Of a stretch of DNA of 64,000 bases, positions 1,457 through 21,955 are shown piece after piece. A program made the translations under genes and the position numbers. Below the pieces are notes generated by a model. The model did not search any database. It had not been told where the DNA came from and saw only the letters and a list, made by a program, of their open reading frames with translations. Source of the stretch: Candidatus Micrarchaeota archaeon (lineage in GTDB: Archaea; Iainarchaeota; Iainarchaeia; Iainarchaeales; JAGVWC01); contig JAZDJR010000014.1 of NCBI GenBank assembly GCA_043803815.1, forward strand, positions 32,001-96,000, in the 5' to 3' direction. Position 1 is the stretch's first letter; each line of letters begins with the position of its first letter.

Positions 1457-1536
1457 AGCAGCCTTTTGCTAGCGCAAAAGCCTGGGGAAAAAAGCCTTCG
1501 GCAACAACCTTTTGCTGGCCAAAAGCGGGGGAAAAA
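1457..1536 (+). repeat. Two tandem copies of tRNA-associated palindromic repeat (family I)
   Basis: AGCAGCC-TTTTGC-TAGC-GCAAAA-GCCTGGGGAAAAAAG (1457-1494) and ACAACC-TTTTGC-TGG-CCAAAA-GCGGGGGAAAAA (1503-1536). Matches copies at 20124, 20305 and 21897 and in tRNA introns. Confidence 0.75.
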
Positions 1537-2673
1537 TTACTGCGGTTTTTTGAAAACCACGACCGCATCCTTGGTTTGCCCCGTCTTAAAGCTTCGATCC
1601 GCATGGCACCAGATTTTTCTGGCGGTAATATTTTTCACAAGTTCAAACCCTTCGGTTGCCGCGATTTTTTCCAGGTACTCGTCCGATTGCACGGGGCCGT
1701 GCGGCAGGCAGCCGCCAGCAATATTAAACACGCAGACTCCGCCGGGCCTGATTGCGGGAAACAAATTGTTCAAAACTTTTTTCAAATCCAAAAAATACGC
1801 CTGGCCGATTAGCGGCAGTTCCGCAAACTCGGCCACGGGTTCCATGTTCGGGTTGTCCCCGACAAACGCGCGCAACCGCGTCTCCTGATAACCGAAAAAC
1901 AAGCCCAGTTCGAGCTTGTAAACGCTGGTGTATTCGATTTTGTTCAAATAGGGCGGTGAAGTAATCACCGAACCGATGGATTCGGGTTCAAGCGCTATCC
2001 TGCGGCAATCCTCGTTCCATACGGCGGGCTCTTTTGCAAAGCCGGTTTTGGAATCGTCCAGATTAAATTTCGTTGATTTCAAATCCGCGGCCATTTTGGT
2101 TATTTTTCCCAAAAAAAGCTTGGCTACGGGCATGTCGGGTTTTTTTTGCTTGCGCAAACTGCCGCCGACCTTGACCACGTTAGCCACCCTTCCCGTGGTG
2201 TCGATTAAGGCCAGCAAAAACAACTCGCGGATTTTTTCATCCAGAATTTGCTCGATTTGCGTTTTATAAAACCACACCGTTTCCAAGGCGGAATGGTAAA
2301 ACAGTTTTCTAATGCGCGGATCCACGGGAATTTTTTCAATCGGTTCGGGCTTTAATCCCCGCAGTTTTTCAAGTTCCGAACCGATTTTTTCCAAATCATA
2401 ATTTCGCGTCTTTGCGCGGCTTGCCAGGCACGCCAAAGGCGAAACATCCGTTCCCATGGATTCGATTCCTTTTTTTTTGCACGCGACCAAAGTGGTTCCG
2501 ACTCCGCAAAACGGGTCGAACACGGGCCCCTTTAACTGGAATTTTTTTAGGCACCAGTTCACAAACTCCTCGGAATAACCCTCCTTGTAATACAGCCAGT
2601 TATGAATCGGCTTGTCCTTATTCGGGACAAAAGTAACCCAGTCGGCAAGTCTAGCTTCGATATTTTCGGCCAT
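1537..2673 (-). CDS. Orphan amino (N4-C/N6-A) DNA methyltransferase
   Basis: Motif I FDPFCGVGTT precedes catalytic motif IV TSPPY. No adjacent endonuclease. Confidence 0.85.
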   Translation of the reverse strand: MAENIEARLADWVTFVPNKDKPIHNWLYYKEGYSEEFVNWCLKKFQLKGPVFDPFCGVGTTLVACKKKGIESMGTDVSPLACLASRAKTRNYDLEKIGSELEKLRGLKPEPIEKIPVDPRIRKLFYHSALETVWFYKTQIEQILDEKIRELFLLALIDTTGRVANVVKVGGSLRKQKKPDMPVAKLFLGKITKMAADLKSTKFNLDDSKTGFAKEPAVWNEDCRRIALEPESIGSVITSPPYLNKIEYTSVYKLELGLFFGYQETRLRAFVGDNPNMEPVAEFAELPLIGQAYFLDLKKVLNNLFPAIRPGGVCVFNIAGGCLPHGPVQSDEYLEKIAATEGFELVKNITARKIWCHADRSFKTGQTKDAVVVFKKPQ

Positions 2674-2757
2674 ATTTTTTTCCGCAACCGCCTGTTTTTT
2701 TAGTAACCAATATTGGAACGATTATGTTTTTATTGCCCAAAAACCTCAATTAACCCT

Positions 2758-4284
2758 ATGGTTGCCGAATCCAATCCCTTAATGGTCATCGGAATAATTC
2801 TGGTGTTCAGCTGGGTTTTAAGCTTTTTTTTCAAAAGAATCGGCCAAAATCCCGTGGTCGGATTTATCGTTTCGGGGTTTTTGCTCGGGCCCTTTGTATT
2901 CCACATTTTAACACCCGAAACTCCCCTGGTTCAGGCGTTTTCCGAACTTGGGCTGTTTGTTCTTTTGTTTTATCTTGGAATCGAATTGTCGTTTCGCGAC
3001 TTTGTCAAAGCGGGCGTTCCCACTTTGGGCCTTGCCCTGGCGGACATGTCGGTTTGTTTTCTTGCGGGCTTTTTAATCGCTTTAATGGCTGGCTTTTCCC
3101 TTCTTTTTTCCGCCGCCGTCGGACTTATGATGTTTTCTACTTCCAGTGCCATTGTAGGCAAATTTTTGGTGGATCGCGGCCTGATACGAAAAAAATCCTC
3201 GCAAATGGCCTTAGCGATTTTGATTCTGCAGGACTTTTTGGGAATCTTGGTGCTCGTTTTCATTTCAAGCGTTTCCAGTTCCGGTTCCGCACTGGACTTG
3301 GCCCTGACCGCGGTCGTGTTTGCCGGAGTATCCTTTTATGCGGTGCACCGATTGTCCAAATTCGTTGAAACATACTTCGAGCGCTATCATCTCGGAGCAA
3401 CCGAACTGACCGTGTACGCTCTCGCCGTTGCTTTGGTCGTATCCGCCTTGGGAAGCTTTCTGAAACTTAATCCCGCATTGGGCGCGTATTTTGCCGGATT
3501 TGCCCTGTCGGAACTGTCGGTCGGCGAAAAAGTCAAGGAACAAATCGGGTTTTCGCGCGACTTTTTCCTGATGTTTTTTTTCGTTTCTTTTGGCGCGAGC
3601 CTGTTTTACAATTCCGTTTCCCAAACCATCACGTTTCCGGCCATCGACCAGCTCGTGTTCCTAGTCGGACTTTCCATTGTCCTTGGAATCGTGAGCATTA
3701 TTGTCCACGGCGTGGTACTGACCATGATGGGGCCTTTGTTCAACATTTCCAACCGCGAATCCAGCGAAATGGCGATTCTGCTTTCTCCACTCGGAGAATT
3801 CGTCATCATCATCGCGATTTCAATCATCCCGATTCTTGCGGTAACGGAATCGCTTTCTCTTGCGCCGATTGCATTCCTGCTTATTTTGGCTACACTTTTG
3901 ATTTTCCAGCCGCTCTACAACCACCTGAACTGGCACGATCGAATAACCCAAAAAATTCCCGCGTTTGCCTCGCGCGTCCACACCGAACAGCCCAAAACAG
4001 AACATTCCAGCGAAAGCATCCAATGGCTAAAAACGCTTGCCAAAAACCTGCTGCTTTTAGTCTGCCTGGCCTGGCTGACCCTGCAATTATACCGCGCCAT
4101 CCCGACAATCGGAATTCCGATTCCTTTCAGCCGCGAAATATTCACCGTTTTGGTATTCGCGTTTTTCGCGTACATTCCCGTGTCGCGTTCCTTGCGCGCA
4201 TTCCGCAAAATCATCCACGCCGCACAGCCAAGCCATTACCACCATCACGGCAAAGTCCTGCACAGCCGCCTGAAAAACTTTTAG
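2758..4284 (+). CDS. CPA2-family cation:proton antiporter (Kef/NapA-like)
   Basis: More than 12 TM helices with the motifs ELGLFVLLFYLGIE, STSSAIV, ILQD and PLGEF. Confidence 0.88.
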   Translation: MVAESNPLMVIGIILVFSWVLSFFFKRIGQNPVVGFIVSGFLLGPFVFHILTPETPLVQAFSELGLFVLLFYLGIELSFRDFVKAGVPTLGLALADMSVCFLAGFLIALMAGFSLLFSAAVGLMMFSTSSAIVGKFLVDRGLIRKKSSQMALAILILQDFLGILVLVFISSVSSSGSALDLALTAVVFAGVSFYAVHRLSKFVETYFERYHLGATELTVYALAVALVVSALGSFLKLNPALGAYFAGFALSELSVGEKVKEQIGFSRDFFLMFFFVSFGASLFYNSVSQTITFPAIDQLVFLVGLSIVLGIVSIIVHGVVLTMMGPLFNISNRESSEMAILLSPLGEFVIIIAISIIPILAVTESLSLAPIAFLLILATLLIFQPLYNHLNWHDRITQKIPAFASRVHTEQPKTEHSSESIQWLKTLAKNLLLLVCLAWLTLQLYRAIPTIGIPIPFSREIFTVLVFAFFAYIPVSRSLRAFRKIIHAAQPSHYHHHGKVLHSRLKNF

Positions 4285-4290
4285 ACTTTT

Positions 4291-5250
4291 TCAGGACTGT
4301 TTTTTTCCCAAACGGACCGCAAGCCTGACCAGCATGTCCTTGGTCATGGCAGTCAAATCATAGCTCGGCTTCCAGTCCCATTCGCTTCTCGCGCAGGAAT
4401 CGTCCAACGAAGCAGGCCAGGAATCGGCAATCGCCTGGCGAAAATCCGGCTTGTATGTTATTGCAAATTCGGGAACGTGCTTTTGGATTTCGGCAGCCAA
4501 TTGTTCCGGCGCAAAACTCATGGCATTCACGTTAAAGTCCGCATGACGCTTTAATTTGGAAACCGGCGCATCGGCCAGGTCCATGAGCGCTTTAAGGGCA
4601 TCCGGCATGTACATCATGGGTAAAAAAGTCCCTTTTTGCAAAAAGCACTCGTATTTTTTGCTTTGAATCGCTTCGTAAAAAATCGCGACCGCATAATCCG
4701 TAGTGCCGCCGCCGGGCAAAGCTTCCGAAGAAATGATTCCGGGAAAACGCACCCCGCGCACATCCAGGCCGTATTTGTGAAAATAATACGTTCCCAATAA
4801 TTCGCCCGCAACCTTGGTCGCGCCGTACATGGTGGACGGATGCAAAACCGCATCGTTGGACGTGTTTTTTTTTGGCGCGTCGGAGCCGTACACCGCCATG
4901 GAACTCGGAATCATTATCCTTTCGAGCTTGAACTCGCGGCCGACTTCAAGGACATTGTACGTTCCCGTCATGTTGACGTGGTAGGCCGCCTGCGGGTTTT
5001 GCTCCCCTTTGGCCGAAATAATCGCGGCCATGTGATAAATTGTATCAATGCCGTTTTTGCGCACGATTTTTTCCAAATCCTCTTTTCGGGTCACGTCGCC
5101 AAACACCACGGGCCCTTCTCCCAAGTCAACGCCTTTGGTATTCATATGGCCCATGGCAAAAACATTTTCATTTCCGAATTTTTTTCGCAACGCGGGAACC
5201 AGTTCCGAGCCGATTTGGCCAAACGCGCCCGTAACCAGGATTCTTTTCAT
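4291..5250 (-). CDS. SDR-type L-threonine 3-dehydrogenase (NAD-dependent epimerase/dehydratase family)
   Basis: GAFGQIG, YGATK, GGGTTDYAV, LPMMYMPDA and RQAIADSWP match SDR-TDH. Confidence 0.88.
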   Translation of the reverse strand: MKRILVTGAFGQIGSELVPALRKKFGNENVFAMGHMNTKGVDLGEGPVVFGDVTRKEDLEKIVRKNGIDTIYHMAAIISAKGEQNPQAAYHVNMTGTYNVLEVGREFKLERIMIPSSMAVYGSDAPKKNTSNDAVLHPSTMYGATKVAGELLGTYYFHKYGLDVRGVRFPGIISSEALPGGGTTDYAVAIFYEAIQSKKYECFLQKGTFLPMMYMPDALKALMDLADAPVSKLKRHADFNVNAMSFAPEQLAAEIQKHVPEFAITYKPDFRQAIADSWPASLDDSCARSEWDWKPSYDLTAMTKDMLVRLAVRLGKKQS

Positions 5251-5331
5251 TCCATCACAGTTCAATATCGGGGGATTTGGGTTAAATAGCCTTTTGGCGA
5301 AAAAAAACCAAAAGTCGGGAAGTGACGAAAA

Positions 5332-5982
5332 TCAGTCCTGAATCCTGCCGTTTTTTTGGAACGCATAATACGAATAACCGAACGAACCGGCAACAATACA
5401 GGCAATGGACAGGCCAAACCAAATCCAAAACTGATTTGGCCAAACCAAAATCGGCAAAACCAGCACTGCGGCCAGCCAAAAAACGGTTCTGGCAAACTTG
5501 TGCGTCTGGTCCCAGACTTTTTCGCTTGCCAAAGTCCACGGCGTCCGTATTCCTACAAAATAATTGCGCTTAAACGACGGCGACAAATAACCGATAACAA
5601 AAAAAAGCAGGGCCAAGCCCGGAACCATAAAATAATTCATGTTAAATTCAAAGCCGAGATTGAACAGCAAAGTCACGGCAAAAACCGCGCCTAAAAAAAG
5701 CTCGATTACCAAACCCAGCAGCCAGTATTGTGCCTCGAATTTTTTCAGGTTTTTTTGGTACACTTCGATTTTTGGAATCAGTAAAAAAACTATGAACGCA
5801 ACCAGCATGACAACGGGAAGAATAAACGCGGCCGTTAAGGGCGAACCAAAACCGTTGGCTTGTCCAGCTGCGTTCCAGTGAATCGCCACTTTTTCAGGCA
5901 GCAATGGCAAAGCCCAAAATCCCGCGATAAAAGAAAGTACGACTAATAGTCCTGCCAGTATCTTTGGAATTCTTTTTTGCAT
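5332..5982 (-). CDS. SdpI/DUF1648 family membrane protein
   Basis: LPEKVAIHWNAAGQANG (DUF1648) and RNYFVGIRTPWTLASEKVWDQTH (SdpI). Start set at MQKRIPK. Confidence 0.88.
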   Translation of the reverse strand: MQKRIPKILAGLLVVLSFIAGFWALPLLPEKVAIHWNAAGQANGFGSPLTAAFILPVVMLVAFIVFLLIPKIEVYQKNLKKFEAQYWLLGLVIELFLGAVFAVTLLFNLGFEFNMNYFMVPGLALLFFVIGYLSPSFKRNYFVGIRTPWTLASEKVWDQTHKFARTVFWLAAVLVLPILVWPNQFWIWFGLSIACIVAGSFGYSYYAFQKNGRIQD

Positions 5983-6022
5983 AACGAATACACGGCAAAA
6001 CAGCGTAAATAGCTTTCGAAAT

Positions 6023-6319
6023 TTACTGTTTGGCAATCGTGCCGGCTTTTCCCGTGGAAATCTGCTTTTCGCCCTTGTATTCCGAGCACCAGCCGTTTTC
6101 AATGGTTATGGTGTCGCCTTCGTTGTACTGGTTCACCTGGTCGTTCCACAAGGTCAGGGAAATCTCGCCGGAATCGTCTTTAACCGCCGCTTTGCAAAGT
6201 TTTCCCTCGCCGCGGCTAGACGCAAAAGGGCGGGGCTCTCCTTTGGATACCAGTTCAACCACGACTTTTGAAAACGTCTGGTTAACCTGCAGTTCTTTTA
6301 CTTTTTGAATTTCAGCCAT
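6023..6319 (-). CDS. Single OB-fold ssDNA-binding protein (SSB/RPA-like)
   Basis: VKDDSGEISLTLWNDQ...ITIENGWCSEYKGEKQISTGKAG is an archaeal SSB OB fold. Confidence 0.88.
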   Translation of the reverse strand: MAEIQKVKELQVNQTFSKVVVELVSKGEPRPFASSRGEGKLCKAAVKDDSGEISLTLWNDQVNQYNEGDTITIENGWCSEYKGEKQISTGKAGTIAKQ

Positions 6320-6439
6320 AACAAATCAGAATTATTTGCCAGCCAAACCGTTATAAATTAATCCTTGCCAACCAAACCCAAAAAAAGCAACCAAAAGGCG
6401 ATTTTTCAAATCAAACGCTTATTTTTGAATTTCAAATCT

Positions 6440-7786
6440 TTATTTTTTGGCTTTGGATTTTACTGTTTTTTTAACCGTTTTTTTCGCGGGTTTTTTCGCC
6501 TTCGCTTTTGGTGTTGCTATTGAAACGTGCTTTCCGATTTCAGTCTGGCCGTCCATGTACGGCTGCAAAACTTTTGGAATCTTGATGTTTCCGCTTTCGG
6601 TCTGGTAAGTTTCCAAAAGCGCTATCATTAACCGCGAAGTCGCAAGGCCCGAACCGTTTAACGTGTGGCAAAAAATCGTTTCGTTTTGCCGCTTAAACTT
6701 GGTATTCATGCGCCTGCCTTGGAAATCCGTGCAATTCGAAATCGAACTGCATTCCAGGTACTTATCCATTGCCGGAGCGTACACTTCCAAATCATACGTT
6801 TTCGCGGACGCGATTCCCATGTCACCCGACGCCAATAATTTGGTTCGGTAATGCAAGCCCAGTTTTTCAAGCAATTGTTCGCCGTAACCGCGCATTTCCT
6901 CGTGCAGTTTCCACGATTCTTCCGGCGTGCAGATAAAAACCATTTCGACTTTGTCAAACTGGTGCAGGCGAAAAATTCCCGGGGTTTCCGCTCCGTGCTT
7001 TCCCGCTTCGGTTCGAAAACACGCGGTAAAACTGCAAAACTTTTTCGGCAAATCCTTTTCTTCCAGGGTTTCGTTCGCGAACAGGTTCGTGACAGGCACT
7101 TCGGCTGTCGGAATCAGGTAAAAACCGTCCGTGGTCTTGTACAGGTCTTTTTCAAACTTGGGCAGGTTTCCCGTTCCAAATGCGGTTTTCTCGTTCACCA
7201 AAAACGGAACGCTCACTTCTTCCAACCCGTTTTTTCTGTGGCAATCCAGAAAAAAATTAATCAACGCGCGCTCCAATCGTGCCAAATCTTTTCGAAAAAC
7301 AAAAAATCCCGCCCCCGCGATTTTGGCCGCGCGCGTCATGTCCAGCATTTCCAAGGCGTTCGCCAGCTCGTGGTGCTGCTTTGGAACAAAATCAAATGCG
7401 GGTTTTTTTCCGCTTTCTTTTACGATTTGAAAATTTTCCTCTCCGCCGGACGGAACGCTTTCATGCGGAATATTGGGCAGGCGCTGGAGCAAAAAATCCC
7501 TGCGCTCCAAAAACGAGCCGGTTTCGACTTCGGTTTTCGCGATTTCCCGCGGCAATTCCCGAGCTTGTTTCAGCAATTCTTCAATCGATTTTCCCGCTTT
7601 TTTGGCTTCTTTGATTTCAATGGTAATCTTGTTCCGCTTGTTCCGCAACTGGTCTTCCATGGACTTGGATTCCCTCCATTTTTGGTCAAATTCCATTAAC
7701 TCGTCAACGGATACCTCGCTTTGGCGCTTTTGCATCGCTTGCCTGACCAGTTCAGTCTTTTCGCGGATTAAATGAATATCCAGCAT
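6440..7786 (-). CDS. serS: Seryl-tRNA synthetase with Lys-rich C-terminal tail
   Basis: MLDIHLIR start, LIPTAEVP, FRTEAG, LHQFDKVE and HTLNGSGLA motifs. Confidence 0.97.
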   Translation of the reverse strand: MLDIHLIREKTELVRQAMQKRQSEVSVDELMEFDQKWRESKSMEDQLRNKRNKITIEIKEAKKAGKSIEELLKQARELPREIAKTEVETGSFLERRDFLLQRLPNIPHESVPSGGEENFQIVKESGKKPAFDFVPKQHHELANALEMLDMTRAAKIAGAGFFVFRKDLARLERALINFFLDCHRKNGLEEVSVPFLVNEKTAFGTGNLPKFEKDLYKTTDGFYLIPTAEVPVTNLFANETLEEKDLPKKFCSFTACFRTEAGKHGAETPGIFRLHQFDKVEMVFICTPEESWKLHEEMRGYGEQLLEKLGLHYRTKLLASGDMGIASAKTYDLEVYAPAMDKYLECSSISNCTDFQGRRMNTKFKRQNETIFCHTLNGSGLATSRLMIALLETYQTESGNIKIPKVLQPYMDGQTEIGKHVSIATPKAKAKKPAKKTVKKTVKSKAKK

Positions 7787-8021
7787 GTCCAACACTATGT
7801 TCCCTAAGCCATTTTAACCTTTGGCACCCTCGAGAGTGTCAAATACAAAAAGCCCTTAAACAAACCAAAAGGGGCTTTTTGTTATTGCGAAACAAGGCCA
7901 ATCAGGGGTTTTGCGGCTAAAACGAGGGTTTAACTACTTTTTGAAGACAAGGTATTCAAGGCGATAGTAAGACTAGGTTCTAGTTGTTTTTTCGCCAAAA
8001 ACAAAAAAGGAGTAAGTAAGA

Positions 8022-8328: not shown

Positions 8329-8348
8329 CCGGATTTTGACAATTGTTT

Positions 8349-9715: not shown

Positions 9716-9956
9716 TCCCCTCTCCAGGATTTGCACCAGGGACCTTCCGGTCGCCGCACGTCCCAAAGGGACATTAGGCCATCCGCTTTTGGCGGATATT
9801 ATTCCTCGGGTTTCCCGTTTTTGGCTTTCGCCAAAAAGGGCCCTTTCAAGCTTTCGCTTGAAACGGGTTTCTTTGAACCCGAGGCGCGTTTCTTTTCTTT
9901 CGAAAAGAAAGCCGTTCTTCTACAGCCGGACGCTCTACTAGCTGAGCTAAGAGGGG
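9716..9956 (-). tRNA. tRNA-Tyr(GUA) with 168-nt intron (9752-9919) at 37/38
   Basis: C1:G72 acceptor CCCCTCT/AGAGGGG-A, TCCGG-CT-GTA-G|intron|A-CCGGA. Relaxed BHB with CTGT/GCGG central helix. Confidence 0.92.
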
Positions 9957-11753: not shown

Positions 11754-11827
11754 GCCGGTGAAGCATATCCTGGTTTTGCAGCGGTTTTGTAAACCGCAGG
11801 CTGAGGGTTCAAATCCCTCCACCGGCT
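11754..11827 (+). tRNA. tRNA-Thr(UGU)
   Basis: GCCGGTG/CACCGGC-T acceptor, GCGGT-TT-TGT-AA-ACCGC, GTTCAAA T-loop; TTTAAA box upstream. Confidence 0.93.
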
Positions 11828-11997
11828 ATTTGTTCAATTTTATCCAAGTGCCCGAACCGGTTTCTTTTTTTGCCGTGTCAAAAAAAAGTTTCAGGGTATC
11901 CAAATTATAAAATCCGATTCGAGAATCATGCATGGGAAAAATAGCTCTTAAGCGAATAAGCCGTTTTGCCAGCCCGTCATTTCCGGTGAAACCGGAT

Positions 11998-13710: not shown

Positions 13711-13890
13711 TGCCCTTGCCGGGAGTTGAACCCGGGTCTCAACCGCACTCCCTGTTGATAATTTTTTCCAAGGTTTTTTGCGATCCGATTTTGCCAAAAA
13801 GGCAAAATGAGCCCATTCGAGCTTGCTCGAATCGGGCAGCAAAAAAGTTGTTTGAGAGGGTTGTATCCTTGGCCGCTAGATGACAAGGGC
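13711..13890 (-). tRNA. tRNA-Glu(CUC) with 107-nt intron (13746-13852) at 37/38
   Basis: GCCCTTG/CAAGGGC-A acceptor, CAACC-CT-CTC-A|intron|C-GGTTG. BHB central helix CTCT/GGAG. Confidence 0.93.
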
Positions 13891-15334: not shown

Positions 15335-15383
15335 AAAAGAATCCGTTACTCAATTTTCGGCGAAAGCATTTTTAAGGGTTTAT

Positions 15384-16043: not shown

Positions 16044-16115
16044 AGCCAAAATAAGGATTATTGGACTATAAAAGAAATTCGATTAAAAAATGGAAATTGG
16101 GCTGAAAACGGGAAA

Positions 16116-16952
16116 TTACTTTTTTTTGCCCGTTTTTCCCTGGTGGCGAATAAACGCGTTAACCGCATCCATGATTTCAATCGGAACCGCAATTACGACC
16201 GTATTGGAAGCTGTTGGCCCCAGGCCGTCGATGGTCTGCAGGGTTCGCAATTGCATGGCGCCGGGCATTTTGGCCATGATTTCGGCGGCCTTGGCCAGGT
16301 TGTCGGCTGCCATGCGGTCCCCTTCGGCCTTGATAATCGTCGCGCGTTTTTCGCGTTCGCTTGACGCTTGTCGGCTCATCAATCGCTTTAAGTCTTCGGG
16401 CATGTCGATGTCCTGCATTTTGATGCTTGTGACCTCGATTCCCCAGGCAATGCTTTCTTTTTCGACAATCGTTTCAATCTGCTTTCCGATTTGTTCGCGC
16501 TCCGCCAAGACTTCGTCCAGCATCTGTCCGCCGACGACATCGCGCAAAGCGGTTTGCGCGTACTGCGAAACCGCGTATTCGTAATCCTGCACGTTAATGA
16601 TTGCTTTGGAAGCATCCACTACCTTGAAATACAATACCCCGTTAATCGTAACCGGAACATTGTCTTTGGTAATCGCCTGCTGGCGCGGAATATCAATCGT
16701 GGTTATCCGCATGTCGATAATCCGAACGCGCTCGATAAACGGAAAAATAAAATTCAAGCCCGCCTGCAACGTGCGGTCCATTCGGCCCAAAGAAAATATT
16801 ACGCCGGTCTGGTATTGCTGGACAATGCGAATCGACAAAGCCAAAAGCAAAATAATATAAATCGGAAGAAAAATCCAAAGTCCCAAAGATAAAAGCGCAA
16901 CCGCAATCGCCGCCAAAATCAGGCCGATAACCAGTTTGGGGCCGTTGTTCAT
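16116..16952 (-). CDS. SPFH/band-7 (stomatin-like) protein
   Basis: ITKDNVPVTINGVLYF, AQTALRDVVG and EREKRATIIKAEG. Confidence 0.93.
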   Translation of the reverse strand: MNNGPKLVIGLILAAIAVALLSLGLWIFLPIYIILLLALSIRIVQQYQTGVIFSLGRMDRTLQAGLNFIFPFIERVRIIDMRITTIDIPRQQAITKDNVPVTINGVLYFKVVDASKAIINVQDYEYAVSQYAQTALRDVVGGQMLDEVLAEREQIGKQIETIVEKESIAWGIEVTSIKMQDIDMPEDLKRLMSRQASSEREKRATIIKAEGDRMAADNLAKAAEIMAKMPGAMQLRTLQTIDGLGPTASNTVVIAVPIEIMDAVNAFIRHQGKTGKKK

Positions 16953-17009
16953 ATGGTATTCTTCCAGCAGAGAATTTAAAAAACCAAATCCAAAAACGGG
17001 TCTAAGTAT

Positions 17010-17050
17010 CCAAAAACGCAGGCCACGCGGCGGGGTGGGTGCGAACAGTT
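17010..17050 (+). repeat. Family II dispersed repeat upstream of the LAGLIDADG gene
   Basis: CCAAAAACGCAGGCCACGCGGCGGGGTGGGTGCGAACAGTT compared with the 33131-33172 reverse complement CCAAAAACAGCCCTGCGGCGATTGGGTGCGGATAG. Confidence 0.6.
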
Positions 17051-17079
17051 AAAACCGGTTTTCAGCGGAAACGAGGTGC

Positions 17080-18201
17080 GTGCAAAATGACTTATTCCAA
17101 AATACGGCTATTTTATTGCTGATTGAAATGCGTGTTGGTTTTGGGGATGCTGCTATTCGCACCGAGTTTTTTGAACTGGCTAAAGCAGGAGCGAGCTGCA
17201 AGACTTGGCAGGTATTCAGCCAATTGCTAAAAATGAGACGAACAAGATTGGAGCGTTTTCGGTATGGTCAGCAACTGTTTTCAGAGGAATTATTTGAAAA
17301 ACTCTTGGGATTTTTGCCTGGAGATGAACGGGAAAAATTTCGAAAATCCACTGTTTTTAACTCTGATAATTGGGGGCAAGTCAAGGGAGGAAAAAGGACG
17401 GCGAAATTGCATCCCGAGAATTATGAGCGGGCGCGTCAATTTGCAATTAATGCAACAAAAGAAAAAGCAAGATTGCAAGAAGATAACTTTGATTTGACAA
17501 TGCCTCTTTCAGAGGAGTTGTGCGAGTTGGTGGGCGCGATTATCGGAGACGGCTGCATTAGCGGATTTAAGACCAAATATGGTCACTATCAGAATCATGT
17601 TTCCATAACCGGCCACAGTGTTTTGGACAAAGATTATTTGGGTTATATGGGCAGTCTTTTGGGAAAGTTTTTTGGGATTAAAGTAACAACGCGTTTTCGA
17701 AAAACCAAAAAAGCAATGGTTGTTTTTGTTCATTCCAAACTCGTTTTTTCTTTTTTCACCAAGCGTTTCGGATTTGTTCCCGGTCCAAAGGCATTCACGG
17801 TAAAAATCCCGGAAGAAATTTTGAAATCTGAAGAGCGATTTGTTTTTTCAACGATTCGAGGAATATACGATACCGACGGCTGTATTTTTTTTGACAGGCG
17901 AAAACCATACGGCAGACCGTACCCTCGAATTTCACTGCAAATAGTAAGCAAACCGTTGGCCGAACAATTGCATGGTTTTTTACGGCGGTATTTTTCCGTT
18001 CGTTTCGGAAAAAACCGCAATCGCAACTCGTATTTCGTTGAAATTTACGGCCATGAACAATTAGCAAAGTGGATGAACTTAATCGGGTTTTCTAACCAAA
18101 AACATTTGAATCGATATTATGCTGGAATGAAGAATAGCCCGTGGGGAGATTTGAACTCCCAACCCCGTCATGGTCAGACAACAAGTTATGTATACCAATG
18201 A
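17080..18201 (+). CDS. Free-standing double-motif LAGLIDADG homing endonuclease
   Basis: LCELVGAIIGDGC and STIRGIYDTDGC motifs; no intein or intron context. The last 66 nt overlap tRNA-Thr(GGU) antisense. Alternative start ATG 17128. Confidence 0.9.
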   Translation: MQNDLFQNTAILLLIEMRVGFGDAAIRTEFFELAKAGASCKTWQVFSQLLKMRRTRLERFRYGQQLFSEELFEKLLGFLPGDEREKFRKSTVFNSDNWGQVKGGKRTAKLHPENYERARQFAINATKEKARLQEDNFDLTMPLSEELCELVGAIIGDGCISGFKTKYGHYQNHVSITGHSVLDKDYLGYMGSLLGKFFGIKVTTRFRKTKKAMVVFVHSKLVFSFFTKRFGFVPGPKAFTVKIPEEILKSEERFVFSTIRGIYDTDGCIFFDRRKPYGRPYPRISLQIVSKPLAEQLHGFLRRYFSVRFGKNRNRNSYFVEIYGHEQLAKWMNLIGFSNQKHLNRYYAGMKNSPWGDLNSQPRHGQTTSYVYQ

Positions 18202-18230
18202 CGAGCAAAACCAGGCTATGCTTCACGGGC
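18136..18230 (-). tRNA. tRNA-Thr(GGU) with 21-nt intron (18172-18192)
   Basis: GCCCGTG/CACGGGC-T acceptor, CGTCA-TT-GGT-A|TACATAACTTGTTGTCTGACC|A-TGACG; BHB motif. Confidence 0.93.
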
Positions 18231-18264
18231 GAATAGCTACTAAAAACCGCTTGGAAAATGCTTT

Positions 18265-19527
18265 TTAACCCATCATTTCAAGCAGTTTGGAAAGGCCGAC
18301 CAAGGAATTGGGCAAGTCAAATTGCCCTTTTTTTTGCAAGTCCTTGACCGTTACGGTTCCTTTTTTTTCCTCGTTTTCGCCGATAATCGCGAGAAAACGG
18401 ATTCCTTTTTTTTGGCAGTACTCCGAATTTTTGGACACGTTTCGAGACAATAAGTCAAACTCCGCATTAATTCCTGCTTGCCGGAAAGCGTCGGCCGCTT
18501 TTAACGCCAAAGCGGATTGTTTTTCCGTAAACGCCATGACCAGCACCCGGGATTTGGGTGGAACTTTTTTGTTTTGTTTTTCCAAAACATCGAGCAGGCG
18601 GTCAACGCCAAACGAAATTCCGGTTGCCGGCGTTGCTTGTCCGCCGTACAATTCCACGAGCTTGTCATAGCGCCCGCCGCCGCCGACACTCGGCCCCTGC
18701 TTGGTCTTGATTTCAAAAACAAATCCGGTATAATACTCCAGTCCGCGGGCCAATGACAAGTCCAGTTTTACCGCTTCGGTCAGATTGTTTTGCTTGACCA
18801 GTTCCAAAAGCTTTTCCATTTCTTCCATCGGCTTTTTGTTTTTCAAAACCGCCTTGATTTTTTTCAAATCCTTTTCCTTTAGCACTCCAAGGATTTTTTT
18901 GCCGATTCCGCATTGCTTTAATTCTTCCTCGACCTCTTTTTCCCCGATTTTGTCAAGCTTGTCGATAGAGCGAAAACAATCCGCAATTTTTTCCTTGGGA
19001 ACCCCGCAGGAAAATGCGAGTTCTTCCAAAAGCGGGCGAGAATTCAACACCACCCAATAATCGATTTGCAATTCCTGCATGACCTTGCATCCGATTTGCA
19101 GGCATTCAAAATCCGCCAAAATTCCGGCTGCACCTATAATGTCCACGTCGCATTGCGTGAACTCGCGGTAACGCCCAGCCTGCGGCCGGTCATAGCGGTA
19201 CACGGTTCCGATTTGGTAACGCTTAAACGGCTTGGGCAAAGTGGAATTTGAGGCAATTACCCTGCCCAAAGGAACGGTTAAGTCAAACCGCAATCCGAGT
19301 TCGCGGTCGCTTTTGTCCTTGAAATAATAAATCTCGTTTTTGATGGCTTCTCCGCCAGAACCTTTTTTTGCCAGCAACCCGAAATCTTCCACTATCGGCG
19401 TCTGCAAGGGCTCAAAGCCAAAACTTTCAAACACGTTTCTGCAGGTGTCTTCAATGGACTGCTTGACGCGCATCTGGTCAGGCAAAAAATCGCGCATTCC
19501 CCGAACCGTCTGAAATTTTTCCGTCAT
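18265..19527 (-). CDS. hisS: Histidyl-tRNA synthetase
   Basis: RGMRDFLP, LRFDLTVP, GRYREFTQCD, RGLEYYTG and GGGRYD. Confidence 0.97.
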   Translation of the reverse strand: MTEKFQTVRGMRDFLPDQMRVKQSIEDTCRNVFESFGFEPLQTPIVEDFGLLAKKGSGGEAIKNEIYYFKDKSDRELGLRFDLTVPLGRVIASNSTLPKPFKRYQIGTVYRYDRPQAGRYREFTQCDVDIIGAAGILADFECLQIGCKVMQELQIDYWVVLNSRPLLEELAFSCGVPKEKIADCFRSIDKLDKIGEKEVEEELKQCGIGKKILGVLKEKDLKKIKAVLKNKKPMEEMEKLLELVKQNNLTEAVKLDLSLARGLEYYTGFVFEIKTKQGPSVGGGGRYDKLVELYGGQATPATGISFGVDRLLDVLEKQNKKVPPKSRVLVMAFTEKQSALALKAADAFRQAGINAEFDLLSRNVSKNSEYCQKKGIRFLAIIGENEEKKGTVTVKDLQKKGQFDLPNSLVGLSKLLEMMG

Positions 19528-19529
19528 TT

Positions 19530-20030
19530 TTATCTTCCTCGCCCCGTTCGCCTTTGTTGTATTTGTGTTAATAGAATGGTTTTCAATCTTGACAGTGCAG
19601 GATCACTAAAATTGTATTTTTGTTGCAAGTTCAAAAGACCCATCGGCAATGTTTCCGGCCTTTCCACCATTTTTTGAAAAACCGGCAATGATTGGATTCC
19701 TTTTTCGGCAACCATTGCAACGTGCTGGGGGTTGCCGCGCGATTGGCCTTCTGCCAGTTCGCTAACCAGAATCCTGGCAAATCCATCGTCTGGGCATTGC
19801 TCTTTTAATTTGGAAACCAAAGCGCCGAGATTTTTTGGAGTAATAAATTCCCTTTTGATTGCTTCCCCAAAAACTCCCTGTTGGGTGGGGGAAAGCCGCG
19901 GAAACTTATTTCTTAATTGGTCGGAAAGAATGCTCTGTTCGGTTTGTCTTGGGTTTCCTCTTTGCGTTTGTCTTGGCATAATCCGACTCCGGCTACTAGA
20001 ACCACGTCCTGCCTGAGAATATCTTACCAT
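19530..20030 (-). CDS. Hypothetical basic protein
   Basis: ATG 20030 with GGTGA upstream; abuts hisS. The longer ORF call overlaps repeats and tRNA-His. Confidence 0.6.
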   Translation of the reverse strand: MVRYSQAGRGSSSRSRIMPRQTQRGNPRQTEQSILSDQLRNKFPRLSPTQQGVFGEAIKREFITPKNLGALVSKLKEQCPDDGFARILVSELAEGQSRGNPQHVAMVAEKGIQSLPVFQKMVERPETLPMGLLNLQQKYNFSDPALSRLKTILLTQIQQRRTGRGR

Positions 20031-20123
20031 TAAATAATCACCCGCCTTTGAAAAAGCAAAGTTCGATTTTCTTTTCTTTCTTTTGAATAAAGCCGATTTT
20101 CTTTTCTTTTCGCACCTTGCGCG

Positions 20124-20160
20124 TTTTTCCCAGGTTTTTTTGCATAAGCAAAAAAAGCTG
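20124..20160 (-). repeat. Family I palindromic repeat 3 nt from the tRNA-His 3' end
   Basis: Reverse complement CAGC-TTTTTTTGC-TTAT-GCAAAAAAA-CCTGGGAAAAA. Confidence 0.75.
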
Positions 20161-20163
20161 TAG

Positions 20164-20238
20164 GGCGGCAACCGAGATTTGAACTCGGGTTCCAAGCGCC
20201 ACAGGCTTGTGTCCTAACCAGGCTGGACGATTGCCGCC
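20164..20238 (-). tRNA. tRNA-His(GUG) with encoded G-1
   Basis: G-GCGGCAA/TTGCCGC-C acceptor; CAAGC-CT-GTG-GC-GCTTG. Confidence 0.95.
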
Positions 20239-20241
20239 GCA

Positions 20242-20419
20242 CGATTGCGTACGTGCGCTCCGCGCACTTTGTGGTCGCAAGCGACCACAAGAGAGCTGCA
20301 TAGTCTTTTTTCCCCATGCTTTTTGGCTGTGGCCAAAAAGGCTGCTCGGGCGATTGCCGCCACAGCGCCCTTTCGATGGCGCGTGCCGAGATACGTGTCC
20401 CATTTGCAATGGGACGGTA
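20242..20419. repeat. Composite hairpin cluster 5' of tRNA-His (family I at 20305-20346, family III at 20351-20419)
   Basis: Hairpins GTGCG-CTCCG-CGCAC, TTGTGGTCGC-AA-GCGACCACAA, CTTTTTGGC-TGTG-GCCAAAAAG and GTCCCAT-TTGCA-ATGGGAC. Confidence 0.7.
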
Positions 20420-20716
20420 GTATGCTTTTATGGAAATGCTCGCTTTGCTCAAATCCCCGATAATATACGGCTGACTCGGCGAAACGTAAAAGTAGGTTTT
20501 TGGCATTGTGACCGTCTGATAAGTGATAATTGAGTTAAAAATAGTGTCATCAGTTTCGATAATGAAGTCGATCACTTATCATAGACAATCAAACTAATTA
20601 CTGTGAACGAGTGTTTTAAAAGGTTTGGATAGTCCTTAACCAGTTGCTTTTTCCCAAGGGTCGTTTTTTTGGGTGAAAACGGCTTTTTAAGCTTTATTTA
20701 GGGGTTTTTTGGTAAT

Positions 20717-21631
20717 ATGGATAAAAAATTGCGGCAAAATTACGAAAAAGCGGGCGCTATTCACCAAAGCGCGGTCGCGTTTGCCCAGAAAAAACTCAAG
20801 CCCGAAACCCCGCTGCTTGGATTGGCCGTTGAAATCGAGGATTTTATTTTTGGCCGGTTAAAAGAGGAAAAACTCGACGGCGGCCTCGCGTTTCCCTTGA
20901 ATCTATCCTTAAACAATGTTGCCGCGCATTTTACCCCCGGAACTGGCGACAAAACCGTTTTGGGAAAAGACGACGTTTTAAAAGTGGACATCGGCGTTCA
21001 CGTGAAAGGCTGCATTGCCGACGGAGCGTTTACATTCAATTATTCCAATAAGCACGAAAAACAAATCGAGCTGAACAATTCGATTTTGCAGTCCGGCTTG
21101 GATTCAATCAAAGTCGGTTCCCCGATTTCGGTTGTCGGAAACGCGATTGGAAAAATAATGGAAAAAACGGATTTCAAAACCATTGAAAACCTGACCGGAC
21201 ACGGCCTAGGCGTATACCTCCAGCACGACGAACCCCAGATTCCAAATCAGCCCAACAACCTGAAAACCAAAATCACGGACGGAATGGCATTAGCCATCGA
21301 GCCGTTTGTCACAACCGGCCGCGGATTCGTTGCCGAGGCAAGCCAGGTTGAAATATTTTCCATTGAAGAGCCAAAGCCGGTCCGCGACATGAACGCGCGA
21401 AAACTATTGGATGTCATCGGAAAGCACTGGCCTTCCCTTCCCTTTGCGGAACGCCAATTGGCCAAAGAAACCGAGTTAAGCGAATTTGCGCGAAAAGTCG
21501 GCTTGCGCGAATTATCCCGCAACAAGATTTTGCACGCTTACCCCGTTTTGCAGGAGCAAAAAGACGCGATTGTCACGCAAAGCGAAAAAACCGTCCTAAT
21601 CGACGGCGACGAAGTCAAAATCATCAACTGA
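20717..21631 (+). CDS. map: Methionine aminopeptidase type II
   Basis: AAHFTP, KVDIGVHV.G.IADGA, NLTGHGL and AIEPF motifs, plus the type II helical insert. Confidence 0.95.
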   Translation: MDKKLRQNYEKAGAIHQSAVAFAQKKLKPETPLLGLAVEIEDFIFGRLKEEKLDGGLAFPLNLSLNNVAAHFTPGTGDKTVLGKDDVLKVDIGVHVKGCIADGAFTFNYSNKHEKQIELNNSILQSGLDSIKVGSPISVVGNAIGKIMEKTDFKTIENLTGHGLGVYLQHDEPQIPNQPNNLKTKITDGMALAIEPFVTTGRGFVAEASQVEIFSIEEPKPVRDMNARKLLDVIGKHWPSLPFAERQLAKETELSEFARKVGLRELSRNKILHAYPVLQEQKDAIVTQSEKTVLIDGDEVKIIN

Positions 21632-21736
21632 ACGGTTTGAAAGGAAAAAATTTCCATCCTTAAAATAACCACATTTATTTAAAACAAAAGCAAAAGAAGT
21701 GTATAGTTAACCAATCAGAACAGCCAAACAAAAGCT

Positions 21737-21892
21737 GGTCCCGTAGTATAGCCTGGATAGTATACAAGCTTGCGGTAACCTTTTAGGAAAAGGTTAGCGA
21801 AAAAAATACGTCGTCCTGTTTTCAACAGGACAGCGGTATGTTCGCAAAGTTGCAATGAGCTTGGGACCTGGGTTCGAATCCCAGCGGGATCG
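21737..21892 (+). tRNA. tRNA-Arg(GCG) with 82-nt intron (21776-21857)
   Basis: GGTCCCG/CGGGATC-G acceptor, CAAGC-TT-GCG-G|intron|A-GCTTG. Strict BHB with TTGC/GCAA and AAC/GTT helices. Confidence 0.95.
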
Positions 21893-21955
21893 CACACTTT
21901 TTCCCCGGGCTTTTTTAATAAAAAAGGCCGGGATTGGAATCCCAGCGGGATCGCA
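21876..21955 (+). mobile_element. 19-bp duplication of the tRNA-Arg 3' end enclosing a family I palindrome
   Basis: GAATCCCAGCGGGATCGCA at 21876-21894 and 21937-21955. The spacer reverse complement contains CCGGCC-TTTTTT-ATT-AAAAAA-GCCCGGGGAAAAAG. Confidence 0.75.

What the first reader, a model, noticed from the sequence alone, without database searches (positions are those of the whole stretch)
1457..21955. A tRNA-targeted palindromic element (family I) in tRNA introns and at tRNA ends
Seen: a ~30-45-nt motif, CA(A/G)C(C)-T4-7-[loop or cargo]-A4-7-(G/C)C-(T)GG(G)-A5-7, occurs eight times. All copies I found are at tRNA genes. Two lie upstream of tRNA-Asp (1457, 1503) and two flank tRNA-His (20124, 20305). 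One follows tRNA-Arg (21897), and three are inside the long introns (Tyr 9811-9840, Glu 13762-13852, Arg 21777-21806). The Tyr-intron copy CCTTTTTGGC-GAAA-GCCAAAAA and the intergenic copy CCTTTTTGGC-CACA-GCCAAAAA differ only in the loop. Most of the Glu intron is one copy with two extra hairpins nested in its loop. Known: archaeal splicing endonuclease reads only the BHB motif, so intron interiors tolerate insertions. Inference: a non-autonomous element targets tRNA loci, uses BHB introns as a safe haven and explains their expansion. Excised circular introns could be a vehicle. I know of no description of such an element.
Basis: partly seen in the sequence, partly recalled or inferred. Interest (0 to 1): 0.82.

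Follow-up and report, generated by a model that had tools for sequence, protein, structure and literature searches.

The report
Mobile hairpin repeat around archaeal tRNAs
A short hairpin-forming DNA repeat has spread through this small archaeal genome and its relatives, landing mostly in tRNA introns and at gene ends, which may help explain how archaeal tRNA introns grow or arise.

Summary
The motif is real. A strict descriptor finds 19 hits in the 1.08-Mb genome, against 0 in the reversed genome and 0-1 in simulated genomes. A covariance model gives about 25 copies.

Two are marginal (1505 and the cargo-bearing Glu intron copy). Two do not score (Tyr and Arg introns).

The consensus is C[A/G]GC, a T run, a free-sequence stem-loop, an A run, C-C[T/C]G-GG and an A run. 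The 3-bp foot helix covaries and sits beside a conserved C·C mismatch.

14 of 25 copies lie in tRNA introns or within 70 nt of a tRNA. The rest sit at protein-gene boundaries.

Many non-intron copies are flanked by 9-44-nt direct duplications of the gene end, which regenerate an intact gene. Relatives show empty sites.

Distribution is patchy. One species carries 20 or more copies while its congeners carry 0-2, and all 71 matching stretches among 185,579 species genomes are in archaeal assemblies.

I read it as a non-autonomous mobile hairpin element with a strong but not exclusive tRNA association. No mobilising enzyme was identified.

The parts
1459..1493 (+). Family-I copy. It lies 55 nt upstream of tRNA-Asp, antisense to it, and just after the stop codon of the minus-strand ORF 1537-2673.
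   Evidence: CM 28.6 bits, E 3.5e-6; strict descriptor hit; no flanking duplication.
1505..1536 (+). Degenerate second copy, 11 nt after the first. Its foot helix is broken.
   Evidence: CM 14.3 bits, E 0.05; sequence.
9811..9839 (-). Hairpin inside the 168-nt tRNA-Tyr intron. It may be a decayed copy.
   Evidence: CM 11.4 bits, E 0.36, not separable from noise. Its arms are identical to those of copy 20306-20344.
13762..13850 (-). Family-I copy filling most of the 107-nt tRNA-Glu(CTC) intron, with two extra hairpins nested in its loop. It starts 2 nt after the 5' splice site, in sense orientation.
   Evidence: Intron bounds from ARAGORN. The fold shows a U6/A6 stem enclosing two hairpins. CM partial hit, 16.4 bits, E 0.013.
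20124..20160 (-). Family-I copy abutting the 3' end of tRNA-His (3 nt away), in sense orientation, with no duplication.
   Evidence: CM 51.9 bits, E 5e-13.
20306..20344 (-). Family-I copy about 70 nt upstream of tRNA-His, in sense orientation.
   Evidence: CM 28.8 bits, E 3e-6; one mismatch in the foot helix.
20351..20364 (-). 14-nt fragment that duplicates the 5' end region of tRNA-His (20228-20241). It abuts the 5' side of copy 20306-20344.
   Evidence: Duplication score 11.5 with 80-nt flanks; sequence.
21898..21932 (-). Family-I copy just after tRNA-Arg(GCG), antisense to it.
   Evidence: CM 32.5 bits, E 2.5e-7; strict descriptor hit.
21934..21955 (+). Direct duplicate of the last 19-22 nt of tRNA-Arg (21873-21894). 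It ends at the discriminator base.
   Evidence: Duplication score 19.5-20. A roughly 90%-identical relative in run X1 joins 21893 to 20 letters that match 21956-21975, so it lacks both the element and the duplicate.
21777..21806 (+). Hairpin at the start of the tRNA-Arg(GCG) intron. It is not a family-I member by the model. By eye it resembles the start of the tRNA-Pro(GGG) intron on contig C23.
   Evidence: No CM hit at E<=10. The resemblance was read and was not formally tested.
1331..1404 (-). tRNA-Asp(GTC)
9716..9956 (-). tRNA-Tyr(GTA) with a 168-nt intron
13711..13890 (-). tRNA-Glu(CTC) with a 107-nt intron
20163..20237 (-). tRNA-His(GTG)
21737..21893 (+). tRNA-Arg(GCG) with an intron of about 63 nt. 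Its ortholog in G002 has no intron.

Best explanation
Family I is a small (about 30-45 nt, longer with cargo) non-autonomous mobile element. It is found in archaeal metagenome-assembled genomes that depositors mostly label as DPANN lineages.

What is conserved is a shape plus two short tags. There is a 3-bp foot helix (C[A/G]G paired with C[T/C]G), a C·C mismatch, a T-run/A-run stem whose inner part is free to vary as long as it pairs, and a GG(G)-A5-8 tail, often followed by GAAAAC.

Shown:
- It is multi-copy and far beyond chance.
- Its stems covary.
- Its distribution among species is patchy.
- Relatives have empty sites.
- Its 5' end is always precise.

Shown: copies fall into three settings.
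1. Inside BHB introns, usually starting 0-3 nt after the 5' splice site, at the canonical position and also in the T-loop. Here the foot helix serves as the intron-side helix of the splice motif.
2. Abutting the 3' end of a tRNA in sense orientation.
3. Within the first or last 10-45 nt of a tRNA or protein gene, or at a stop/start junction. Here the element is flanked by a direct duplication of that gene end, so one intact gene copy remains.

Inferred:
- Insertions persist only where they do not kill a gene in this compact genome, that is, in introns, just past gene ends, or where a duplication rebuilds the gene.
- On top of that filter there is a real preference for tRNA loci.
- Insertion and accretion of such hairpin modules is what has inflated the long tRNA introns.
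- The element is probably handled as a folded single strand by a structure-reading nuclease or transposase supplied in trans. A Y1 HUH enzyme is the leading candidate. The variable duplications would then arise from a second, imprecise break and fill-in. This last step is the weakest part of the reading.
For: Beyond chance:
- The strict descriptor gives 19 hits, against 0 in the reversed genome and 0-1 in each of five Markov-5 genomes.
- The CM gives 23 hits at E<=0.002 genome-wide. Two more that the first-look filter missed were recovered in the window.

Structure:
- Foot-helix types found with <=1 mismatch allowed were CAG/CTG (most copies), CGG/CCG, AGG/CCT, AAG/CTT, GAG/CTC and CAG/TTG.
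- Inner stems differ in sequence but pair.

tRNA enrichment:
- 14 of 25 copies are in or within 70 nt of the 36 detected tRNAs, which with flanks cover 0.86% of the genome.
- The binomial P is 5e-23. It is 2e-10 if copies are confined to an assumed 12% non-coding fraction.

Duplications:
- The flank-duplication score is >=11 at 9 of 24 loci, against 1.5% of 1500 random sites.
- Examples include about 25-29 nt of the tRNA-Trp 5' end, 19 nt of tRNA-Ser, 22 nt of the tRNA-Arg 3' end, 41, about 37 and 26 nt of protein-gene starts, and 16 nt of an overlapping stop/start.
- Relatives show the same pattern (L066, L067, L069, L080, L085, L086).
- In the species-wide scan, 19 of 77 copies score >=11.

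Empty sites:
- The E2-like gene start is empty in G002 and G003.
- The tRNA-Arg 3' end is empty in a roughly 90%-identical relative.

Patchiness:
- The 16-mer tag occurs in 26 of 196 genomes of the order. The reversed control gives 0 everywhere.
- G186 has 20 copies, while the other 17 genomes of its genus have 0-2.
- BLAST finds 27 further copies in G186. The hits in its 16 congeners cover only the flanking genes, not the element.
- All 71 matching stretches among 185,579 species genomes are in archaeal assemblies.

Introns:
- Copies are found in Ser, Leu, Arg and Glu introns here.
- Copies are found in Pro, Arg, Ser, Leu, Thr, Ile and Ala introns of relatives.
- At least 4 T-loop introns begin with the element.
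- The orthologous tRNA-Leu(TAA) intron carries the element in sense orientation here and antisense in G003.
- tRNA-Arg(GCG) has no intron in G002, a 181-nt intron in G003 and a 111-nt intron in G105.
- In 3 of 4 folded pre-tRNA arms the foot helix starts right after a 2-3-nt bulge at the 5' splice site.

Splicing endonuclease and RNase P RNA are both present.
Against: - No mobilising enzyme is tied to the element.
- Y1_Tnp is found in 6 of the 10 genomes with >=4 copies, against 49 of the other 186 genomes. It is not found in G186 (20 copies), G011 (14), G003 (13) or G002 (5). All of these are incomplete metagenome-assembled genomes.
- Five orthologs of this genome's TnpA have no copies within several kb.
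- The TnpA's own flanks do not match the element.
- IS200/IS605 and REP systems, as I recall them, make no target duplication, and there is no fixed target word before the element here.
- Duplications are absent from all 5 intron copies and from all 19 loci examined in G186. They are therefore not an obligatory product of insertion.
- Duplication lengths of 9-62 nt fit no known transposase.
- The outer edge of the duplication coincides with the mature tRNA end in most tRNA cases. That is an RNA landmark, not a DNA one, and my model does not explain it.
- tRNA enrichment is lineage-dependent: 0 of 20 copies in G186.
- No fresh insertion or excision was observed in reads.
Confidence: 0.6

Rival explanations
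1. It is a retro-mobile tRNA intron. The splicing endonuclease cuts the intron RNA just before the CAGC foot. That RNA, linear or circular, is then copied back into DNA by target-primed synthesis from its A-rich tail. This would give variable duplications and occasional chimeras with tRNA fragments.
For: - The element has an A-rich 3' tail and a precise 5' end that equals the 5' splice-site position.
- Duplications are variable and long.
- Duplication edges fall at mature tRNA termini, within 1 nt in 5 of 7 cases that I read.
- Variable extra sequence lies between the tail and the right-hand duplicate.
Against: - No RVT_1 match was found in the genome, which is 85.6% complete.
- Intron copies themselves lack duplications.
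- Antisense intron copies exist.
- No 5'-truncated copies were seen.
- The tRNA fragments carry no CCA.
Confidence: 0.15
2. It is a functional RNA or DNA signal rather than a parasite. For example, it could be a processing or protein-binding hairpin for tRNA transcripts, combined with a bidirectional oligo-T terminator. On this reading it is kept by selection and copied with gene ends by ordinary duplication.
For: - Copies sit next to RNA processing sites: the 5' splice site and the tRNA 3' end (8 or more cases across 5 genomes).
- T runs are present on both strands.
- All copies examined in G186 lie right after stop codons.
- Stem covariation shows selection for pairing.
Against: - Sense-strand T5-T8 runs lie inside introns of tRNA genes, where termination would cut off the tRNA.
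- Both orientations occur.
- Copies occur between a duplicated fragment and the start of protein genes.
- The motif is absent from most relatives and from 15 of the 17 congeners of the richest carrier.
- Orthologous sites are empty.
Confidence: 0.1
3. The flanking duplications are not made at insertion. They are scars of recombination with DNA from a diverged relative, in which the element already lay next to that gene. In that case the 'duplicate' is a foreign or displaced ortholog fragment.
For: - Similarity between the two copies stops at the edge of the conserved gene (tRNA +1 or the 3' end).
- Differences between duplicated protein-gene starts are often synonymous or conservative. For example, both differences in L066 are at third codon positions. 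Across four pairs that I read, 10 of 17 differences are at third positions.
- The sequence between the tail and the right-hand duplicate is unrelated to the native upstream flank.
Against: - It requires a donor with the element at the same gene for every case.
- 10 of 17 third-position differences is close to what one decaying copy plus one selected copy would give (my estimate is about 47%).
- The precise join at the CAGC foot in every case still needs a break made at the element.
Confidence: 0.1
4. The motif is a chance product of A/T-tract hairpins, or a generic terminator common to all intergenic DNA.
For:
- Many unrelated T/A hairpins exist in the window (89 hits at E<=10).
Against: - The strict descriptor gives 19 hits against 0-1 in controls.
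- The top copies score 40-59 bits.
- The reversed-pattern control gives 0 in 196 genomes.
Confidence: 0.02

Closest known systems
Bacterial REP/REPIN elements with their RAYT (Y1 HUH) transposases
   Same: - Short imperfect palindromes with a conserved tetranucleotide at the foot.
- A mismatch in the stem.
- Dispersed extragenic copies, often touching or supplying stop codons.
- Composite arrays.
- Patchy distribution.
REP properties come from passages read in PMC3733652 and PMC6006769.
   Different: - The foot tag is C[A/G]GC, not GT[AG]G.
- There are tens of copies rather than hundreds.
- The stem is A/T-rich.
- The hosts are archaeal.
- No REPtron arrangement was found around Y1 genes.
- Copies lie inside tRNA introns.
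- Many copies carry long target duplications.
Transposed tRNA introns of Thermoproteales (Fujishima et al. 2010, as summarised in PMC4090602; I read passages only)
   Same: - Near-identical intron sequences occur in different tRNA species.
- They occur at canonical and non-canonical BHB positions.
- The mechanism is stated there to be unknown and presumed to act at the DNA level.
   Different: - The host lineage is different.
- Here the same sequence also occurs outside introns, at tRNA ends and protein-gene boundaries. There it comes with target duplications and empty sites that give a handle on mechanism.
Bacterial miniature elements of modular hairpin type (Correia, BOX, RUP, RPE, MIRU).
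   Same: - Small non-autonomous repeats in compact genomes.
- Modular hairpins.
- Insertion at gene boundaries, sometimes preserving overlapping stop/start signals.
   Different: - Those elements have terminal inverted repeats with short fixed duplications, or none at all.
- None is known to me to live in tRNA introns.
tRNA-gene-targeting retroelements of eukaryotes (Ty3, Dictyostelium TRE). These are recalled from memory.
   Same: Insertion is concentrated at the ends of tRNA genes.
   Different: - Those are autonomous retrotransposons guided by Pol III factors.
- Here there is no coding capacity and no reverse transcriptase was found.

Membership tests
REP/REPIN-RAYT system | Short imperfect palindrome present in many dispersed copies | tested here: met
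   About 25 copies; stem with a conserved mismatch
REP/REPIN-RAYT system | Conserved 5' GT[AG]G tetranucleotide at the foot | tested here: not met
   The foot is C[A/G]GC
REP/REPIN-RAYT system | Cognate Y1 transposase gene flanked by copies (REPtron) | tested here: not met
   Five orthologs of the contig C21 TnpA have no copies within several kb. On C21 itself three copies lie about 2.2 kb away. Four of the ten genomes with >=4 copies show no Y1_Tnp.
IS200/IS605-derived miniature element (PATE) | Ends resemble the subterminal hairpins of a full-length IS in the genome | tested here: not met
   BLAST of C21:1201-2100 against the genome gives only one unrelated 48-nt match. A T/A hairpin upstream of tnpA is similar in style only.
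IS200/IS605-derived miniature element (PATE) | Insertion 3' of a fixed tetra- or pentanucleotide, without target duplication | tested here: inconclusive
   There is no common word before the element in G000, and duplications are present. In G186, by my count, about 13 of 19 loci have TAAYT before the element and none has a duplication.
Classical MITE (DDE transposase) | Terminal inverted repeats with a target duplication of fixed length | tested here: not met
   Duplications range from 9 to 62 nt or are absent
Mobile BHB tRNA intron (Thermoproteales type) | Closely similar intron sequence in tRNAs of different identity | tested here: met
   Ser, Leu, Arg and Glu introns here; Pro, Arg, Ser, Thr, Ile and Ala introns in relatives
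Mobile BHB tRNA intron (Thermoproteales type) | Sits at splice-motif boundaries, canonical and non-canonical | tested here: met
   Starts 0-3 nt after the 5' splice site. T-loop introns are seen in at least 4 loci.
Mobile BHB tRNA intron (Thermoproteales type) | Confined to introns | tested here: not met
   20 of 25 copies in G000 are outside introns
Intrinsic oligo-T terminator | Found at 3' ends of transcription units and not inside genes in sense orientation | tested here: not met
   Sense copies with T5-T8 lie inside tRNA introns. Copies also lie between a duplicated fragment and a gene start.
SINE-like retroposon | A-rich 3' tail and variable target duplications | tested here: met
SINE-like retroposon | A reverse transcriptase available in the genome | tested here: not met
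   No RVT_1 match; the genome is 85.6% complete, so this is not proof of absence

The most novel reading that the evidence does not exclude
The element may be a mobile tRNA intron module spread across DPANN-labelled archaea, one that both creates and inflates BHB introns. Its foot helix supplies the intron-side helix of the splice motif at whatever loop it enters, whether the anticodon loop or the T-loop.

Its extragenic insertions may be aimed by RNA landmarks. The duplicated gene segments run from the mature tRNA 5' or 3' terminus, or from just upstream of a start codon, to a point 10-45 nt inside the gene. This is what one would expect if breaks were made at the edges of an RNA:DNA hybrid, or of a transcribing or paused complex, and the folded single-stranded element were then captured there.

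If so, this would be a way of inserting DNA not described for any prokaryotic element. It would also be a concrete route for archaeal tRNA intron gain.
Probability: 0.25. Interest if true: 0.88.

Novelty: new variant of a known kind. Interest (0 to 1): 0.72.

Why it matters
How archaeal tRNA introns arrive and grow is an open question. A 2014 review calls the mechanism of intron transposition unknown (PMC4090602, passages read). The abstract of a 2026 preprint on Asgard tRNA genes says how introns arrive 'remains open'.

Here one sequence family is seen in three places: inside introns, at tRNA ends, and at protein-gene boundaries. Duplications and empty sites mark individual insertion events. 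That turns the question into something testable with strain-resolved genomes and simple biochemistry.

It would also be the first REP-like repeat family I could find for this kind of archaeon. Searches found no description. Supplements of those papers were not seen and could hold one.

Finally, it warns annotators that tRNA fragments and pseudo-starts next to these hairpins are by-products of insertion.

Tried and rejected
- RNA evidence: no RNA holder was listed for the window stretch. Splicing, intron circles, transcript starts and termination therefore could not be examined.
- Reads: only contigs of two DNA runs were available. One run is a relative at about 90% identity and the other is sparse cover of the same strain. 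Several joints near tRNA-His were reported as 'between: not known' and were not interpreted. No insertion polymorphism within one strain was seen.
- A-run as a portable TATA box: rejected as a general rule. The distance from the tail to the tRNA start varies from 19 to 64 nt, and the distance to protein start codons is only 11-26 nt.
- Small upstream ORFs that read through the element and stop on the real start codon: explained by duplication of overlapping stop/start junctions, not by a peptide.
- Cas1-type integration (which gives long duplications): no Cas1 was found.
- Reverse transcriptase: none was found.
- Tyrosine recombinases: two were found and not followed up. Remnants of integrase attachment sites cannot explain one 40-nt insert at many different genes.
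- Y1 transposase link: weak.
- Genome-wide CM search: it scored only 150 of 1763 first-look candidates and missed two true copies. I rescored the window with filters off.
- Orthologous tRNA-Trp locus: found only in a different family (G006). There it has no intron and no upstream copy. This is consistent with the reading but the relative is distant.
- Empty sites for G186 copies in congeners: the flanking genes are only 67-75% identical, so exact insertion bounds could not be drawn.
- The search of earlier findings returned nothing.
The folds were made by reference instead.
Depositor labels of carriers are quoted only.

Full report
**Setting**

The window is contig C14:32001-96000 of a 1.08-Mb, 36-contig genome that is 85.6% complete. 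ARAGORN with introns allowed finds 35 tRNA genes, 20 of them with introns of 19-287 nt. Rfam adds one more tRNA in the window.

A tRNA-splicing endonuclease domain and an archaeal RNase P RNA are both present. The host is therefore an archaeon with a small genome. I did not name it.

All eight places hold T-run/A-run hairpins. Aligning clear copies from the whole genome gives this consensus:
- C[A/G]GC, with an optional extra C;
- a run of 4-8 T;
- an inner stem and loop;
- a run of 4-8 A, with an optional G;
- C, then C[T/C]G, then G1-3;
- a run of 5-8 A.

A strict descriptor of this shape finds 19 hits in the genome, 17 of them compact copies. It finds none in the reversed genome and 0-1 in each of five 5th-order Markov genomes.

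A covariance model built from 8 copies of other loci and genomes gives 23 hits at E<=0.002 genome-wide. That search scored only 150 of 1763 candidates. Rescoring the window with filters off recovered two more copies.

In the window:
- the cargo-bearing Glu-intron copy scores E 0.013 and the second Asp copy scores E 0.05, so both are marginal;
- the Tyr-intron copy (E 0.36) and the Arg-intron hairpin (no hit) are not members by this test.

There is no other hit with E<0.01 in the 64-kb window.

**Anatomy**

The first three bases pair with the three bases after the C that follows the A run. With <=1 mismatch allowed, the pairs found were CAG/CTG (most copies), CGG/CCG, AGG/CCT, AAG/CTT, GAG/CTC and the wobble form CAG/TTG. 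The base next to the foot is a conserved C opposite C.

The inner stem differs from copy to copy but pairs. What is conserved is therefore a fold plus short tags, not a long sequence. Some copies carry extra hairpins in the loop, namely the Glu intron, C21:4080-4164, and several copies in relatives.

**Where the copies are**

Of 25 copies, 5 lie in tRNA introns (4 sense, 1 antisense). Nine lie within 70 nt of a tRNA end, and one more lies at 71 nt. tRNAs with 70-nt flanks make up 0.86% of the genome. The binomial P is 5e-23, or 2e-10 if copies are confined to an assumed 12% non-coding fraction.

The remaining copies are at protein-gene starts or boundaries, in an array on contig C21, and in a hairpin array that follows tRNA-Pro.

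The association is thus strong but not exclusive, and it depends on lineage:
- in relatives, 8 of 13 copies (G003), 3 of 5 (G002), 2 of 4 (G001), 5 of 14 (G011), 3 of 6 (G105) and 1 of 3 (G107) are at detected tRNAs;
- in G186, 0 of 20 are at tRNAs;
- in G186 a near-identical unit of about 60-90 nt follows stop codons at all 19 loci examined.

**Evidence of insertion**

Non-intron copies are often flanked by a direct duplication of the adjacent gene end. The left duplicate abuts the CAGC foot. The right duplicate follows the A tail after 0-64 nt.

Examples in this genome:
- 25-29 nt of the tRNA-Trp 5' end;
- 19 nt of tRNA-Ser;
- 14 nt of tRNA-His;
- 22 nt of the tRNA-Arg 3' end;
- 17 nt of the tRNA-Pro 3' end;
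- 41, about 37 and 26 nt of protein-gene starts including the ribosome-binding site;
- 16 nt spanning an overlapping stop/start;
- 9 nt spanning a stop codon.

Against 1500 random sites, a duplication score of >=11 occurs at 9 of 24 loci versus 1.5% of controls. The same pattern appears in G001, G003 and G011. In the species-wide scan, 19 of 77 copies score >=11.

In each case one intact gene copy remains. None of the 5 intron copies has a duplication, and none of the 19 G186 loci has one either.

Empty sites:
- The E2-like gene start that carries a copy plus a duplication of about 37 nt here is uninterrupted in G002 and G003.
- A relative of about 90% identity in run X1 passes from the tRNA-Arg 3' end straight to the sequence that here follows the duplicated fragment. 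It therefore lacks both the element and the duplicate.

**Distribution**

The 16-letter tag occurs in 26 of 196 genomes of the order, and the reversed control gives 0 everywhere. Counts are 12 in this genome, 13 in G003, 14 in G011 and 20 in G186. The other 17 genomes of G186's genus have 0-2.

BLAST with two G186 loci finds 27 further copies in G186. The hits in its 16 congeners cover only the flanking genes, not the element.

A 25-letter gapped pattern scanned over one genome for each of 185,579 species gives 71 stretches. All are in archaeal assemblies. Depositors label them Iainarchaeum, Woesearchaeota, Micrarchaeota, Nanoarchaeota, Undinarchaeota, unclassified archaeon or 'Methanosarcinales'.

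**Introns**

Intron copies usually begin 0-3 nt after the 5' splice site. In 3 of 4 folded anticodon arms, the element's foot helix starts directly after a 2-3-nt bulge that holds the splice site.

In tRNA-Leu(TAA) the T run pairs with a further A run plus GCTG at the 3' end of the intron, giving a clean outer helix. The same outer helix closes T-loop introns in other assemblies. At least 4 such introns begin with the element right after the T-loop bases.

Orthologous introns differ widely:
- tRNA-Arg(GCG) has no intron in G002, about 63 nt here, 111 nt in G105 (a variant copy at the splice site) and 181 nt in G003 (an antisense copy);
- tRNA-Tyr introns range from 80 to 216 nt;
- the tRNA-Leu(TAA) intron holds the element in sense orientation here and antisense in G003.

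This supports repeated, independent entry into introns and intron growth by hairpin modules. It does not show whether an insertion can create an intron.

**Mechanism**

No reverse transcriptase or Cas1 was found. A Y1 HUH transposase of IS200 type is encoded on contig C21, 2.2 kb from a triple array of the element. A fragment of a second, unrelated one lies at a contig end.

Fold-reading HUH enzymes are the natural candidates for an element defined by a hairpin with a tagged foot. The link is weak, however:
- Y1_Tnp is detected in 6 of the 10 genomes with >=4 copies, against 49 of the other 186;
- it is not detected in G186, G011, G003 or G002;
- orthologs of the C21 enzyme have no copies nearby;
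- the known HUH systems, as I recall them, make no duplications.

The duplications range from 9 to 62 nt and are optional. At tRNAs, their outer edge falls within 1 nt of the mature terminus in 5 of 7 cases I read. The cases are tRNA-Trp, tRNA-Ser, tRNA-Arg 3', tRNA-Pro 3' and G003 tRNA-Arg. tRNA-His is at -4, and one G003 case shares its first base with the element. ARAGORN ends are uncertain by 1-2 nt. I have no tested explanation for this.

I commit to a single-stranded hairpin element, nicked precisely at its foot, with a second imprecise break filled in. I hold the enzyme and the origin of the duplications as open.

**Rivals**

- A generic terminator or chance hairpin is excluded for the core family.
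- A selected RNA signal is hard to square with the patchy distribution, both orientations, sense T runs inside tRNA introns and empty orthologous sites.
- A retro-mobile intron fits the tail, the precise 5' end and the RNA-landmark edges, but it lacks an enzyme.
- A recombination-scar origin of the duplicates fits the sharp loss of similarity at gene edges and the often synonymous differences, but it needs many coincident donors.

**Known relatives**

The closest known kinds are bacterial REP/REPIN elements and the transposed tRNA introns of Thermoproteales. The element fails defining features of each:
- for REP, the GT[AG]G tag and the REPtron arrangement;
- for the transposed introns, confinement to introns.

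Five literature searches found no description of such an element in these archaea. I saw abstracts and selected passages only, and no supplements.

Noticed in passing
G000 contig C33:2807-3187 (outside the window): ARAGORN calls a second tRNA-Arg(GCG) with a 287-nt 'intron'. In the printout this intron looks as if it could encode a small protein with cysteine/histidine pairs. It may be a false tRNA call or an intron-borne gene.
   Followed up: no
G000 contig C21:1362-1856(-) and C8:5-130(+): There are two unrelated IS200-type Y1 transposase genes. The first is intact (164 aa, HUH and Tyr motifs visible) and has a T/A-run palindrome about 80 nt upstream. The second is cut by the contig end.
   Followed up: partly
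G000 C21:1308-1355 and C4:43865-43912: A 48-nt GC-rich hairpin sequence just downstream of the C21 transposase recurs at 96% identity on contig C4. It could be an IS-end remnant.
   Followed up: no
window 9716-9956, 13711-13890; G000 C23:9905-10091, C8:31087-31330: Other small hairpin modules recur in tRNA introns and flanks. One is a GC-poor hairpin of the type ttcaagc...gcttgaa. Others are short GC hairpins between family-I copies. The long introns look like stacks of such modules.
   Followed up: no
window 21777-21815 and G000 C23:13317-13360: By eye, the starts of the tRNA-Arg(GCG) and tRNA-Pro(GGG) introns share a related hairpin-plus-A-run module that differs from family I.
   Followed up: no
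window 11754-11827 and 11839-11996: A tRNA is found by Rfam but not by ARAGORN. The 158 nt that follow it, which include a T7/A8 hairpin, are skipped cleanly in a contig of a roughly 90%-identical relative (run X1).
   Followed up: partly
window 21976-22376: The ORF between tRNA-Arg and tRNA-Leu (21934-22308, 124 aa) is not covered by the contig of the X1 relative, which joins the tRNA-Arg trailer to 22377. This may be a gene-content difference or divergence below 85% identity.
   Followed up: no
G000 C8:31280-31471: From its long variable arm and loop, the gene that ARAGORN labels tRNA-Ala(TGC) with a 106-nt intron reads as tRNA-Ser(TGA). It holds the only antisense intron copy in this genome.
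   Followed up: partly
L084 (G011:C4:9029-9882) and L089 (G011:C48): These loci hold tandem arrays in which the element plus 33 or 67 nt of flank is repeated three or more times. This suggests that local re-duplication starts at the element.
   Followed up: no
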